Assembly (NCBI GenBank): GCA_951406725.2
Contig: OX597822.1
Span: 3,906,001 to 3,970,000 of the forward strand
Origin: Octopus vulgaris
Lineage: Eukaryota
Direction of reading: 5' to 3'
Length of the DNA: 64,000 nucleotides
The position numbers and the translations under genes are program-made. The stretch's first letter is position 1; each line of letters starts with the position of its first letter. A model generated the notes under the pieces. That model did not search any database. It was not told where the DNA came from and worked only from the letters and a program-made list of their open reading frames with translations. This document shows positions 2,467 through 63,659 of the stretch, one piece after another.

Positions 2467-2710
2467 AATAATAAATATTAGGGAATAAATCCAAATTTAC
2501 AAGGAAAAATCAGATTTAAGATTGAATCCAATTTTATAGTAAAATATTATATTATATCAAATTAGAGACAAAACCACTATTATGCAAATCAAACAAAGAA
2601 AGACTTAAGCCAATACATAAAATAATTTATATAAATTATTTTATGTATTGGCTAAGTCTTTCTTTGTTTGATTTGCATAATAGTGGTTTTGTCTCTAATT
2701 TGATATAATA
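2467..2710. mobile_element. Fold-back element in (TA)n, Penelope-like terminal fragment
   Basis: Near-perfect loopless palindrome 2550-2630/2631-2710 plus ~85-nt one-sided extension; same family as 25913-26179. Confidence 0.65.
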
Positions 2711-2745
2711 TATATATATATATATATATATATATGTATATATAT

Positions 2746-2935
2746 TAGGGTGAGTTTACGAAAAAAAACAAAAGACGAAGACAGGTGGTGTACAAAACAA
2801 ACAGATGTATTAGTATAACGCCCAGGAATAGAAAGTCTTTTACGTTTCGAGCCTACACTCTTCTACAGAAAGGAACACAGAAAAAACAAGGAGAGAAAAC
2901 AATGTGTGTAGTGGCTAATGATCTATCATGGCGAC
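2746..2935 (-). mobile_element. ~190-bp TA-inserted element carrying a minimal hammerhead-like motif
   Basis: Second copy at 23130-23335; contains the motif at 2837-2872. Confidence 0.7.
2837..2872 (-). ncRNA. Minimal type I hammerhead-like motif, variant core
   Basis: Minus strand CUUU-CUGUAGA-A-GAGU GUAG GCUC-GAAAC-GUA-AAAG; stems I and II pair. Confidence 0.55.
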
Positions 2936-3227
2936 TATATATATACCTATCTGCGAGTTTTTCTGTGTAAGTTTAATCGTGTGTGTCTGTGTGTATGTGT
3001 GTATGTGTGTATGTGTGTATGTGTGTGTGAATGGAAAAAGCTAAATGCTTCATTCAATTCACTTCAATTTTTCCATAATTTGTTAATAATTCTAAAACAA
3101 AAAAATACAAATTGATACTTTCAAAATTTTGATATCGACGATATATATTTTATTGTCTGCCCATGCCGTAAAAAAAAATCAGTTTCAGTGCAGTAATGCT
3201 AAAGTTTTTGGGGGGTTTTTTGTAATA

Positions 3228-3515
3228 GTAGTAGTAATAGCACTAGCAGCACTGGTAGCAACAGCAGCACTAGCAGCAACAGCAGCACTAGCAGCAACAG
3301 CAGCACTAGCAGCAACAGCAGCACTAGCAGCAACAGCAGCAGCACTACCTGTGCCAGCAACAGGAGCAGCACTAGCAGAGGCAACAGCAGCACCAGTAGT
3401 AGTGGTAGTAATAGTAGTTGTAGTAGTAGTAGTAGTAGTAGTAGTAGTAGTAGTAGTAGTAGTAGTAGTAGTAGTAGTAGTAGTAGTTACTGTTATTGTT
3501 GCTGTTGTTGTTTTC
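3228..3515 (+). repeat. 18-bp minisatellite (CTAGCAGCAACAGCAGCA)n merging into (GTA)n/(GTT)n
   Basis: Direct reading; explains the Ala/Val-rich ORF 3129-3599. Confidence 0.9.
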
Positions 3516-3817
3516 TTGCACCTGTCTAACTCTGGCTCTGGTTATGAAAATTTATTATTAAAGACGCTCCAGCAATGCAGAGACTGTCTCCCATCTTAAG
3601 ATGATACAATGTGCCGTAAGCTTAGTTACGGAGACGTAAACACACCAACACCGGCTCTCAAGTGGTGGCGGTGCATGCACGCATGCAAACACACACACAT
3701 GCACACACACACACACGTACAATGCGCGCGCACACACACACACGTTCCAGCAAACTAGCATAAATTATATATGGCACACATGTAGGTAGATATATATATA
3801 TATATATATATATATAG

Positions 3818-3970
3818 GTTTCAGATTTTGGCACAAGGCCAACAATTTTAAAGAATGGTAGTAAGTCGATTACATCAACCCCATTGCTCAACTGCTACTT
3901 ATTTTATCTATCCCTAAAACATTAAAGGCTAAAGTCAACCATAGCTGAATTTGAACTTAGAACATGTAGT
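3818..3970 (-). mobile_element. SINE family B fragment
   Basis: GGTTTCAGATTTTGGCACAAGGCC...GTCGATTACATC, reverse of the 10586-10797 family. Confidence 0.7.
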
Positions 3971-4104
3971 CAGAGGAAAATGTACAATTTAAATATATTG
4001 AACGATATCTCTCACCGGATGGAGGACTTTTGTTGTTGATCCTACCTATCACAGAAAGTAAAGCGTATATATATATATATATATATATATATATATATAT
4101 ACGA

Positions 4105-4526
4105 GGCGTAGGAGTGACTGTGTGGTAAGTAGCTTGCTTACCAAGCACATAGTTCCGGTTTCAGTCCCACTTCGAGGCACCTTGCGCAAGTGTCTTCTAC
4201 TATAGCCTCGGACCAACCAAGGACTTCTGAGTGGATTTGGTAGACGAAACTGAAAGAAGCCCGCCGTATATATATGTATCTATATATATATGTATGTGTG
4301 TGTGTATATGTTTGCATGTCTGTATTTGCCCCCCCCCCCCCAACGTCGCTTGACAATCGATGCTGGTATGTTTATGTCCCCGTAACTTAGCGGTTCGGCA
4401 AAAGAGACCGATGGAATAAGTACTAGATTTACGAAGAATAAGTCCTGGGGTCGATTTGCTCGAGTAAAGGCGGTGCTCCAGCATGGCCACAGTCAAATGA
4501 CTGAAACAAGTAGGAAAAAAAGAGTA
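4105..4526 (+). mobile_element. tRNA-derived SINE family A, full length
   Basis: Pol III A-box-like GTGACTGTGTGG and B-box-like GTTTCAGTCCC, internal (TA/TG)n, AAAAGAG tail; more than 10 copies in window. Confidence 0.85.
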
Positions 4527-4567
4527 ATATAGATACGTGTGTGTGTATTTATGTATGTATGTATGTC

Positions 4568-60500: not shown

Positions 60501-60667
60501 TTTGGTTTCGGATATGTAATTACACCGCGCCTTCATTCTTTGGTTGACTTTACCTTTCATAGGAGTAGTAGCGATCAAGTAAGGATGTCGACTGCATCGA
60601 TTATAACCTTTAACATAATCGATAGCCTTGTGCCAAAATTTGAAACCAATATTACGTATAAATAAAA

Positions 60668-60840
60668 GCTGGCAGAATCGTTAGCACGTTGGACGAAATG
60701 CTAGGCGGGATTTCATCTGTCTATACATTCTAAATTCAAATTCTCCCGAGGTCGACTTGGTCTTTTTTCCTTTCGGGGTCGATGTAATCGTCTTCCCCCA
60801 ACCCTCGAAATTTCTGGCCTTGTAACAAAATTTGAAATCA
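60668..60840 (+). mobile_element. SINE family B
   Basis: GCTGGCAGAATCGTTAGCACG..CCGAGGTCGAC..AAATTTGAAATC. Confidence 0.8.
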
Positions 60841-60874
60841 ATATTATGCTAGAGCTATCGGATTTTTCAATGTA

Positions 60875-61400
60875 TAGCATAAATATACTCGGGTCTATTC
60901 CATTGCTTCTTCTTCTAAAAAAACTTCTCCGTATGTCTAATCAAAAGAAATTGTTATTGCTAATTCTCCAGATATCAAAAATATCCTTGGGTATTATATC
61001 ACTGTCGCTTGACAAAATTCGTTTTTAGAAAGCTAAGAGCATGTCTCTTTTAGCTGAATCGCAGATATCATTTGAATCTCCTATTGAGAAATTGCGCGAA
61101 GAATTTAGAATATATAGGTTTCCCGAGATGTTTGCAAGATTTGAATGATGTTTTAATACGTTGATACTTTGATGGACTTATCGGATGTAATCATATATCA
61201 CTGTCATGTTTTTCCAACTTTACATCCATCCAACAAAATTCATGACTGAGGGTGGAATCTGATTAGTATTGATATTTGTCACTTCTTCCCCCACTAATGC
61301 ATTGCTGTTTCGAGACGTCAACGTTTGTTTTAATTTTGCTCTGATATACCACATATTCTAATTATTTGACTTTAATGAAATTGGACTCTTGCATAACTTC
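60875..61400 (-). pseudogene. Degenerate L1/Tx1 APE-type endonuclease fragment
   Basis: Minus strand IGDSNDICDSAKRD (GDFN-like), IFDIWRISN, and an ID(R)VYL motif across a frameshift. Confidence 0.5.
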
Positions 61401-61681
61401 TCAGGGAATAATGCCAATACCTCTTACTGAACTGGAGCGACTTTTGTGTATTTTAGCATACTGAATTCTATTTAACTAAAAGCTTAGTTTAATCACTTGT
61501 ATAATATTGGATAATTGTTTAAATAGCCTAACATCGTTCATATAATTTGCCTGAGTCCAGATATAAGCTTATTCACATAAACATATGCAGTTAAGTCAGT
61601 TGAATGTCGTCTTCAAAATACTTTGGTTTGATTTCGAGACCTTAAAATTTGAAAGACATTTGATAATAATTATGTGAAGAT

Positions 61682-61841
61682 AGGTGCTGGAGTGGTTGTG
61701 TTGTAAGTAGCTTGCTTACCAACCACATGGCTCCGGGTTCAGTCCTACTGCGTGGTACCTTGGGCAAGTGTCTTCTACTATAGTCTCGGGCTGGCCAAAG
61801 CCTTGTGATAGAGTTTGGTAGACGGAAACTGAAAGAAGCCT
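61682..61841 (+). mobile_element. SINE family A, 5' half
   Basis: GGAGTGGTTGTG..CCGGGTTCAGTCC..GAAACTGAAAGAAGCC. Confidence 0.85.
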
Positions 61842-62311
61842 GTTTCCTAAATGTCGAAACTCCAACAGCGAGATGTGGATATAACTTTTACACACAAGCA
61901 TATAAATGTATACAATGCATGCAGAGATACGATAAACTAATCATTATTGCTTTCTTTTACTTGCGAATCTCGGAATATCAATAATTTCTTAGTTGTTTCA
62001 CATTTCATCTGATACACATTGATTAGGGAGGCGGTTGAGTGTTATTAATCGGGAAAAGCCGTAGCGGTGCAAAGAACTAGCTCCATGCGTCAAGGTACTC
62101 GATAACTTTCTTAACCCATGCTGAGCTGAATAGCGAATGTTACTATAAAGATACATGACGATAGGAGCATGGACAATAAGATATATGTGATAATATTGTA
62201 TACATAAACACACACACACAAATGTTTATATTATGAAAATGTGAAGTCCTCGAGAAAAGGTGATGTAAATAAATTTAAGGCTGAATCTCGAAGTGGAAAC
62301 ACCAATAAATA

Positions 62312-62527
62312 ATCCGTTTTACTATAGGCGCACAAAGCCTGAAATTTGTGTTGAAGGGGTTAAGTCGATGTCAACGACTCCAGCACTAGACTGGTCCTTA
62401 TCTAATCGACAGCGAAAGGATGAAAGGCAAAGTCGGCTGCGGCGGAATTTTAACTCAGAATATAAAAGACGGACCAAATACCGCTAAGGATTTTGTCCGG
62501 TCTGCTATCGGTTCTGTCAGCTTGCCG
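62312..62527 (-). mobile_element. SINE family B
   Basis: GAAAGGATGAAAGGCAAAGTCG..GCGGAATTT.. Confidence 0.75.
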
Positions 62528-63464
62528 TGTAATGCACCTATAAATAATGTCATGAAGTATAATGGGTTATAAACACATTTCAGAGAAAAAGGGTTGAAGA
62601 CTGCCTGCAGGATATTACTTTTTTTCCATTCTAGAGATTGTACCCGATATATTACATACTCCTATTTTTAGCTCCACACTGGTAGATGACTTCTATTGTA
62701 ATACCCGTATTTCTTGGTTGGAATCATCAGTTGGATATGTCGAGGGTAGATATAAACTACAAAACAGGATTCATTGTTTATAAAATATTTAATTACATCA
62801 TCTTACGTGTGCTGCATTCAAAAAGGAATGAATTTAGTTATGTAATGTAAATTATATCATCAAATTGTATTGTCAGTCTCCAGAGATGCGTAACTTTAAT
62901 TCGTAATATTACTGGACAAGTGACAAGATTGCCACCACTGTATACGTAAACAACTGATGCAATTTCATTATATAAAATGTGCATTATATAATTAATAATT
63001 ATTCTTTATTAATGAAACATGTATATACATATGCATACATAGACTAATGTATGTTAGCGTGTGTGTGTGTGTGTGTGTGTGTGTGCGTGCGTGCGTGTAT
63101 TGTGAAGACGCATAACTTAGTGTCTTCAGCTCGGCTCGTGATCGTAAGTTTATGAGTTCGATACCCGGTGACGTGTTTTGTCCTTGAGCAAAACAACCTC
63201 TTCTCACGTTGCTCCAGTACACTCATCCGGCAAAAATTACTTGTGCCTGTCGTTCACTCACCTACACTTGTCACACTCTGTATCACACTGTTTCCTCCCT
63301 GAGAACCACGTTAAGGGTGCGCATGTCTGTGAACATTTAGTTCACGGACAAACCAACTGGAACACTCGTCACCATAACCGATGAAGTGGCCAGCATATAC
63401 CTATCTATCTATCTATCTATCTATCTATCTATCTATCTATCTATCTATCTATCTATCTATCTAT

Positions 63465-63659
63465 ATTAATAATATCAGGGTAACATAGATTTTAGAAATT
63501 TTTGCTACCAGTGATCTAGCGTATGGAAAAATTAGTCAAAAGACTAAATATTATTCATATAAAATCCTGTGTACATTTAAACACATTAAAAGTTTTCCAT
63601 CACAGGAATCCTATGATGGAAACCTCTTAATGTACTTAAATGTACACTGGATTTCATAT
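63465..63659. mobile_element. Fold-back element inserted in (CTAT)n
   Basis: IR 63557-63607/63609-63659 plus ~90-nt one-sided extension. Confidence 0.65.

What the first reader, a model, noticed from the sequence alone, without database searches (positions are those of the whole stretch)
2467..63659. Many unrelated microsatellite-inserted elements share one fold-back-plus-tail architecture
Seen at 2467-2710, 9530-9643, 16051-16870, 18509-18714, 19426-19996, 24304-24436, 25913-26179, 52199-52800 and 63465-63659 (related cases at 22692-23128 and 57316-57521). Each has an inverted copy whose outer end abuts a microsatellite and matches an internal, usually TA-rich, point of the other arm, and that arm continues as a 45-500 nt unpaired tail. 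The two copies of one family (2467 and 25913) end the inverted copy at the same internal position but turn around at different centres, which points to independent events following one rule. Three of these elements also contain hammerheads. Inference: a shared PLE-type integration mechanism that targets (TA)n and primes at an internal TA site, producing hairpins at high density (about one per 6 kb here).
Basis: partly seen in the sequence, partly recalled or inferred. Interest (0 to 1): 0.7.

Follow-up and report, generated by a model that had tools for sequence, protein, structure and literature searches.

The report
Two-ended Penelope insertions make microsatellite hairpins
These hairpin-plus-tail repeats in TA microsatellites are head-to-head end pieces of Penelope-like jumping genes and their likely protein-less derivatives, a published layout; what is added here is that one arm mostly stops at one fixed point and the other at a second, and that in one family the pieces likely copy the capped, spliced messenger RNA, which would favour priming from both DNA strands on the sense RNA.

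Summary
The hairpins are real: 10 of 11 beat all 200 shuffles. All 11 belong to dispersed families in this 2.8-Gb, likely octopus, genome. Three are 3' ends of Hydra-clade Penelope-like retrotransposons; intact 895-aa copies of a sister family of one of them model as telomerase-like RT. Three are hammerhead tandem repeats of retrozyme type. Four have no parent found (one family spliced and hammerhead-bearing, present twice).

Each family has two fixed ends, A and B, 44-155 nt apart. In 116 of 144 two-ended insertions one arm ends at A and the other at B; A+A once, B+B never. This is the published PLE 'inverted copy plus tail', and the scan has noted it before (14 findings).

Added here: either arm can be the longer, which excludes literal fold-back. 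In family A both arms share splice state (22 of 22), spliced arms stop at a 5' limit, and 5 of 5 arms ending there carry an extra G, a likely cap mark. That favours double priming on sense mRNA over the proposed antisense self-priming.

Corrections: the 500-nt tail is mostly flank, 18509 breaks the rule, several families are related, and the window is denser than random genome.

The parts
2467..2710 (-). Family A copy: tail 2467-2549 (A end at (TA)n), arms 2550-2710 turning at a natural 16-nt palindrome; stops short of the family hammerhead
9530..9643 (-). Family B copy: 44-nt tail, arms 9576-9643; no hammerhead or parent found
16051..16462 (+). Family C (Hydra-type PLE 3' end): inverted B arm 16051-16100, direct arm 16104-16462, B at about 16369, tail truncated
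16257..16296 (+). Hammerhead motif with one core change (GAAA read GGAA)
16463..16860 (.).
18509..18714 (+). Family D (487-nt hammerhead tandem unit, retrozyme type): ends at B on the right; 27-nt inverted arm ends off-rule; 3' half of hammerhead 18566-18581; second copy 18775-18954
19426..19996 (+). Family E (Hydra-type PLE 3' end, 92% to parent L181): inverted B arm 19426-19632, direct arm to A at 19996, 130-nt tail after 19866
19479..19551 (-). Hammerhead motif with long stem II, left arm; mirror copy +19741-19813 has a changed cleavage triplet
22692..23128 (-). Family I (about 355-nt hammerhead tandem unit, U3-A8 core 22899-22867): B end at 22692, inverted arm 23072-23128 ending off-site beside another repeat
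24304..24436 (-). Family F copy: about 94-nt tail, 14-bp arms (marginal alone; longer copies L009, L052, L182 end at the same point)
25913..26179 (-). Diverged family A copy: 79-nt tail, arms 25992-26179
52199..52800 (+). Family G (Hydra-type PLE 3' end): long B arm from 52199 with hammerhead (-52321 to 52278, C at core position 4), short A arm 52634-52800 with about 133-nt tail
57245..57521 (-). Family J copy: tail 57245-57315 ending in (AAT)n, arms 57316-57521; no hammerhead or parent found
63465..63659 (-). Family H (about 470-490-nt hammerhead tandem unit, related to D): 92-nt tail, arms 63557-63659, between (CTAT)n arrays

Best explanation
The hairpins are head-to-head insertions of the ends of Penelope-like retrotransposons (Hydra clade where a parent was found) and of their likely non-autonomous hammerhead derivatives, likely made when the element's nuclease nicks both strands of a (TA)n tract and each free end primes reverse transcription at one of two fixed sites, A and B, on the sense RNA. 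Shown: two fixed ends per family, one A and one B end per insertion, variable inner ends, microsatellite flanks, RT + GIY-YIG parents for three window families, spliced copies in family A. Inferred: both cDNAs run toward the RNA's 5' end and are joined there by end joining with 0-4 nt of microhomology or at a natural palindrome; the A-B distance is left unpaired as the tail; in family A the sites lie about 275 and 200 nt from the capped 5' end, so run-off gives short hairpins. That both primers use one RNA molecule, with strand displacement, is likely but not shown.
For: A+B in 116 of 144 two-ended insertions, A+A 1 (two adjacent elements), B+B 0, 27 with an off-site end (after 7 family-I ends mis-binned by the unit length were read as A). 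In 18 copies chosen for an intact ORF, not for inversion, 14 are inverted and all 13 with both ends seen are A+B; the main copy ends at A in 9 and at B in 5. Parents: window E/G/C match L181, L187/L188, L191 at 92, 92 and 81%, which carry RT and GIY-YIG frames. An intact 895-aa sister ORF models at pLDDT 79 with telomerases as the top seven fold matches, E 1e-9 to 1e-7. Family A: a 1314-nt GT-AG intron is retained in some copies and spliced in others; arms agree in 22 of 22 insertions where both cross it (11 and 11). Of 50 spliced arms 47 stop within 28 nt of the donor; all 5 that stop at 28 carry a G where the genome has T, against 6 of 41 for shorter arms. Arms share subfamily variants (23 observed, 5.2 expected) yet private changes are mostly on one arm (29 vs 6). 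PMC11167929: a PLE protein nicks and extends both strands and starts at two internal sites that bracket the tail.
Against: No raw reads were available; contigs of seven laid run-slots (five runs) did not span a hairpin centre. Families B and J have no hammerhead or parent; A and F have no parent ORF found. Most DNA queries held both arms, which inflates inversion frequency. Splice concordance could reflect intron-less source copies active at other times, since unspliced hits are on average older. The cap evidence is 5 arms of one family, and the hits had to reach far into exon 1. One B+B candidate (L428) and one A+off-site case appear in the second family-A sample. Pfam gives no RT hit and only sub-threshold GIY-YIG hits. 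Window copies 18509 and 22692 have an off-site end.
Confidence: 0.8

Rival explanations
1. Same double priming, but the two subunits of a dimer use two RNA molecules from the same source locus rather than one.
For: PMC11167929 predicts a dimer. Both arms often copy the same stretch, which on one RNA needs strand displacement. Shared variants and splice state fit any same-source model.
Against: Two free RNAs give no obvious reason for one A and one B end. Spliced and unspliced copies occur in one young subfamily, yet no insertion is mixed. Some A arms end at or near B, as in a collision (family A at -2, -4, -5, -8, -8, -12; not tested against a null).
Confidence: 0.25
2. Self-priming on an antisense template makes the head-to-head palindromes (proposed in PMC3846280).
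For: Family A has a hot spot at a natural 16-nt palindrome; intron-retaining copies exist.
Against: Spliced copies in both arms, a fixed 5' limit and an extra G need a sense, processed transcript. Most other junctions have 0-4 nt of overlap, not palindromes.
Confidence: 0.07
3. Literal fold-back: one cDNA primed at A snaps back on itself and is copied back to B.
For: Near-symmetric centres in many A, B, E and H copies.
Against: It requires the B arm to lie within the A arm. The B arm is far longer at window 52199 (438 vs 50 nt) and in G, D and Y copies, and the A arm sometimes does not reach B (L387-L389, L397).
Confidence: 0.05
4. The hairpins are self-spreading MITE-like or foldback DNA elements.
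For: At least 14 family-A copies share one centre; copy numbers are high.
Against: That query contained the centre. The shared centre recurs across different sequence variants. Arms run from about 20 nt to kilobases under one rule. There is a one-sided tail, no terminal inverted repeat, and spliced introns.
Confidence: 0.03
5. Library fold-back or assembly artefact.
For: Hairpin centres were not spanned by any listed contig; L374 shows a separate perfect fold of flank plus element.
Against: Arms differ by private changes, end at family-fixed sites on many chromosomes, and B joined to (TA)n is seen in 20 contigs of run X1 and 4 of run X9.
Confidence: 0.02

Closest known systems
Hydra clade of C-terminal-endonuclease Penelope-like elements (Craig et al. 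2021, PMC8557442; includes Hydra-1_Obim of Octopus bimaculoides)
   Same: Single RT + C-terminal GIY-YIG ORF, DKT, RW motif, no CCHH, CxxC and CxH near the end, hammerhead near the 3' end, (TA)n target; one listed Hydra family has an inverted 5'-truncated copy.
   Different: Unit 3.6 kb and 895 aa against under 3 kb. The E/Y lineage lacks the CxCX5C linker (present in G) and has a long unstructured insert, yet still sits in (TA)n. Tails are 118-155 nt against the 30-40 bp described for PLEs.
Complex insertions of EN+ PLEs: pLTR, adjacent inverted 5'-truncated copy, one-sided tail (PMC8557442 fig. 2; PMC3846280)
   Same: Exactly the fold-back-plus-tail layout.
   Different: Those papers say the tail is optional or often on one end; here one A and one B end is near obligatory, either arm may carry it, and the proposed antisense self-priming is contradicted for family A.
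Poseidon PAc of Anolis in vitro (Frangieh et al. 2024, PMC11167929)
   Same: Both strands nicked and extended in AT-rich DNA; two internal RT starts bracket the tail, near the 5' part of the transcript.
   Different: Other clade; its tail lies in the ORF start, here in non-coding pLTR before the ATG. It reports no homology between start site and target; here 2-7 nt of AT overlap is usual but not significant.
Animal non-LTR retrozymes (PMC7229834; bioRxiv 10.64898/2026.07.22.740005)
   Same: Families D, H and I are 355-490-nt non-coding tandem units with one type I hammerhead motif each.
   Different: They insert with the PLE A/B inverted signature; 'inverted' does not occur in the main text of PMC7229834. 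Circular RNA and cleavage were not tested.
LINE-1 twin priming (as described in PMC11702581)
   Same: Second DNA end primes internally; inversion joined with microhomology; extra G at full-length 5' junctions.
   Different: Here the second start is fixed per family and the two cDNAs usually overlap, giving a palindrome rather than a plain inversion (the non-overlap in L1 is recalled).

Membership tests
EN+ Penelope-like elements | Telomerase-like RT | tested here: met
   Model of L232 ORF (sister of E): top seven PDB fold matches are TERTs; YRDD and DKT motifs. Pfam RT not hit.
EN+ Penelope-like elements | GIY-YIG endonuclease in the same ORF | tested here: inconclusive
   GIY-YIG Pfam hits for G and C parents at E 0.02, below cut-off; motif pattern aligns across homologues; no separate fold search of this domain.
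EN+ Penelope-like elements | pLTR / partial tandem, inverted 5'-truncated copy, one-sided tail | tested here: met
EN+ Penelope-like elements | Spliceosomal intron near the transcript start, retained in some copies | tested here: met
   Family A only: 1314-nt GT-AG intron, 28 nt after the inferred start; none detected in Y, E, G, C.
Hydra clade | DKT in place of DKG; RWK motif | tested here: met
   DKT in E and Y; RW followed by L, not K; 94 and 52 of 107 homologues have DKT/S and RWK/R.
Hydra clade | No CCHH; CxxC and CxH around the conserved E and N | tested here: met
   (Y, E, G; C lacks the H in the one copy read)
Hydra clade | CxCX5C linker | tested here: inconclusive
   Present in G (L187), decayed in C and L188, absent in E and Y; 65 of 107 homologues have it.
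Hydra clade | Phylogenetic placement with published Hydra proteins | not tested
   The Hydra-1_Obim protein was read by eye in the supplement; no alignment or tree with it was made.
Hydra clade | Hammerhead motif and (TA)n target | tested here: met
Non-LTR retrozymes (families D, H, I) | Short non-coding tandem units, each with a type I hammerhead motif | tested here: met
Non-LTR retrozymes (families D, H, I) | Self-cleavage and circular RNA | not testable with these tools
   No RNA holder on record.
PLE origin of families B and J | Hammerhead or RT + EN parent | tested here: inconclusive
   None in up to 530-900 nt upstream; B has the A+B rule (11 of 13 two-ended), J is thin (1 of 2). A Naiad parent, which lacks hammerheads, is possible and untested.
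MITE / foldback DNA transposon | Terminal inverted repeats at both ends of a fixed unit | tested here: not met
   One-sided tail, variable centres and arm lengths.

The most novel reading that the evidence does not exclude
The genome is a fossil record that settles how PLE inverted insertions form: one capped sense mRNA is primed twice, obligately once at A and once at B, from the two strands of a nicked (TA)n tract, with strand displacement. Priming at the 5' copy of these sites runs off the cap and yields tens of thousands of short hairpins. The same rule would mobilise retrozymes, and a Hydra lineage without the CxCX5C finger still targets (TA)n.
Probability: 0.45. Interest if true: 0.62.

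Novelty: new member of a known kind. Interest (0 to 1): 0.43.

Why it matters
How PLEs make tandem/inverted structures and tails is named as open in PMC8557442 and PMC3846280, and PMC11167929 leaves the steps after initiation unvalidated. A strict A+B pairing, splice-state agreement between arms and a cap mark give genomic constraints that separate the published models. A young intact 895-aa family with near-identical copies offers a ready enzyme and RNA for an in vitro test. A rough 60,000-125,000 such hairpins (hand extrapolation) would be a large unannotated source of double-stranded RNA in introns; any link to RNA editing is untested. The architecture itself is known.

Tried and rejected
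Rfam at gathering score: 0 matches in the window. A strict hammerhead scan found one motif outside the elements; a relaxed one still missed E, Y and I, which were read by eye and by folding. Pfam and PDB sequence searches gave no RT hit. Idea that 5' ends mark the hammerhead cleavage site: 4 of 13 nearby ends in family A (1.3 expected) but 2 of 52 in seven other families (3.5 expected), so not general (the family-A window was chosen). Internal site as a true (TA)n tract: not significant (p=0.07). Tail as a shared hairpin: z below -1.7 in 5 of 10 families, no common motif sought. Junction microhomology: of 52 distinct junctions 24 had unmatched bases (3 only because the reference was unspliced); 14 of the other 28 overlap by 2 nt or more against 20% in simulation (p=4e-4, includes the family-A hot spot). 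Parent ORF for family A: none upstream in 20 extended loci or after A in L374. Short motifs of B and J found no matching family in the supplement of PMC8557442. Public runs: no RNA holder listed; contigs did not span hairpin centres. Target-site duplications cannot be read inside (TA)n. (second half), 76 and 79 failed or used a wrong reference and were redone in 26, 56/58 and 83. Literature searches for an account of the A+B rule, twin priming or cap marks in PLEs found none; subscription papers and the supplements of PMC11167929, whose fig. S2 maps insertion ends, were not seen and may bear on this.

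
Full report
Observation. The window lies in a 2.8-Gb genome of 227 contigs, likely an octopus by inference from the one species-named homologue (Argonauta) and the published octopus Hydra family; I did not identify the assembly. All 11 inverted repeats are present; 10 beat all 200 shuffles and 24304 is marginal (5 of 200). 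Nine own-genome DNA searches from the window gave 85 to 4776 first-look candidates per family; family F (24304) was followed only through 8 hits in loci already held.

Parents. Extending long copies gave RT and C-terminal nuclease frames upstream of families E (19426), G (52199) and C (16051), with 92, 92 and 81% DNA identity to the window copies. A protein search of the genome scored 115 of 11,238 candidates and showed many open frames of about 899 codons, some in 3.6-kb tandems. I call this young sister family Y. Its 895-aa ORF has 107 homologues at E<=1e-10, folds at mean pLDDT 79 with two disordered stretches, and matches telomerases first. The motifs (DKT, RW, no CCHH, CxxC and CxH; CxCX5C in G but not E or Y) are those given for the Hydra clade (PMC8557442 section 11), which includes an octopus family. 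No tree was built. D, H and I are 355-490-nt tandem units with one hammerhead motif each, like animal retrozymes. A and F carry hammerheads in longer copies but no ORF was found; B and J show neither.

The rule. In sense orientation the eight families mapped with a hammerhead read: hammerhead, 53-171 nt, site B, tail, site A; B and J show the same B-tail-A ends without one. Tails are 44-155 nt. I mapped 278 loci, dropped 15 as duplicates and 1 as unmapped, and tallied 262. Of 144 with two outward 3' ends, 109 were binned A+B and 7 more family-I cases are A+B once the unit length is corrected; 1 is A+A (two adjacent elements), none B+B, and 27 have an off-site end (7 of them in the old family C). 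Most queries held both arms, so this sample is biased toward inversions. The 18 Y copies were chosen for an intact ORF: 14 are inverted, all 13 with both ends seen are A+B, and either arm can be the long one; independent 50:50 choice would give 13 of 13 with p about 1e-4 (by hand). A second family-A sample, found with queries upstream of B and counted by eye, gave 42 A+B, 1 A+off-site and 1 possible B+B among 44 (five overlap the first tally).

What excludes fold-back. A snapped-back cDNA cannot make a B arm longer than the A arm. Such cases are common, including window 52199, and some A arms stop before B. Two primings are needed. Inner junctions mostly overlap by 0-4 nt or carry extra bases; family A has a hot spot at a natural 16-nt palindrome that recurs in several sequence variants.

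Template. Family A has a 1314-nt GT-AG intron just before the hammerhead. Two searches, one with the unspliced and one with the spliced form, plus 40 fetched extensions or further rows (3 listed unspliced rows not fetched), gave 22 insertions in which both arms cross the site: 11 unspliced, 11 spliced (3 read by eye), none mixed. Of 50 spliced arms, 47 end within 28 nt upstream of the donor; the three at 29, 30 and 34 overlap the AT-rich partner arm. All 5 ending at 28 have a G where the genome has T, in two sequence variants, against 6 of 41 shorter arms. Some unspliced arms run over 900 nt past this point. An extra G at full-length 5' junctions is read as the mRNA cap in L1 (PMC11702581), and Drosophila Penelope has an intron 46 bp after its start (PMC2377424). 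The inference is that spliced copies are run-off cDNAs of a capped sense transcript whose A and B sites lie about 275 and 200 nt from the cap. This contradicts, for these copies, the antisense self-priming proposed in PMC3846280. It rests on one family, and intron-less source copies could mimic the splice agreement. Arms share subfamily variants (23 vs 5.2 expected) and mutate separately afterwards (29 one-arm vs 6 two-arm private changes; 38 of 41 loci), which shows a common source but not a single molecule.

Reality and density. Raw reads were not available. Contigs of coded runs show B joined to (TA)n (20 contigs in X1, 4 in X9) and 16317-16859 in four runs of two organism labels, but none listed spans a centre. 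One detector found 7 distinct hits in the window (6 of the finding's 11 plus one doubtful) and 8 in 18 arbitrarily chosen 10-kb samples, 4 convincing by eye, with shuffled controls 1, 0, 0. The window is about 2.5 to 5 times denser than those samples.

Known and new. The inverted 5'-truncated copy, the one-sided 30-40-bp tail and the (TA)n bias are described for PLEs; two internal RT starts bracketing the tail, with both strands extended, are shown in vitro. Earlier AI notes of this scan reached the same reading, including the one-tail-per-pair rule (seen after my analysis; not independent support). I found no paper stating the A+B rule or the cap and splice evidence in nine searches (see Tried and rejected). 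Papers seen: PMC8557442 passages, section 11 and supplement rows; PMC11167929 parts 1-2 of 4; PMC3846280 parts 1-4 of 5; bioRxiv 10.64898/2026.07.22.740005 part 1 of 5; PMC7229834, PMC2377424, PMC4209133 and PMC11702581 passages only. Recalled, from no call: that U3-A8 is a natural hammerhead variant, and that L1 twin-priming arms do not overlap.

Verdict. A real feature of a known kind, with a clean rule and a modest but testable mechanistic addition. Interest 0.43.

Noticed in passing
L232, L244, L245 (families Y and E): Hydra-type ORFs lack the CxCX5C linker that PMC8557442 associates with (TA)n targeting and have an asparagine-rich, low-confidence insert there, yet their copies sit in (TA)n.
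   Followed up: partly
window 14713-14953 and 15809-16090: Inverted copy of the end of the family-C B arm together with its (CA)n tract and flank; a secondary rearrangement around the element.
   Followed up: no
window 2746-2943, 23131-23342; 54876-55012, 8728-8817: Further repeat ends in (TA)n with hammerhead-like motifs (one perfect minimal core at 54880); two abut elements of this finding.
   Followed up: no
window 18533-18989: 242-nt tandem duplication: a second family-D arm with repeated (TA)n and about 20 nt of flank, like a target-site duplication.
   Followed up: partly
window 47003-47213: 87% palindrome without microsatellite flanks and with no other copy among loci held at that time.
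   Followed up: no
L374 1900-2940: A near-perfect fold at about 2289 duplicates an element end plus flank; a different kind of inversion, real or assembly.
   Followed up: no
L029, L034, L039, L040 (family A); L226-L242 (family Y): Four family-A arms begin within 1 nt of the hammerhead cleavage site and five Y-family 5' ends lie within 12 nt of it; not seen in other families.
   Followed up: yes
families D, E, H, Y; G; I: Unusual hammerheads: stem II of about 40-60 nt, C at core position 4, and a U3-A8 core.
   Followed up: partly
L107 8470-9602; L110 9236-9323; L112 7215-7520: Other hairpin-plus-tail families in the arbitrary samples, one with a perfect minimal hammerhead by eye.
   Followed up: no
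window 12082-12849, 13763-14716, 27066-28209, 49217-51151: Decayed non-LTR retrotransposon frames, by eye; a 1.7-kb (ATT)n array at 41801-43498.
   Followed up: no
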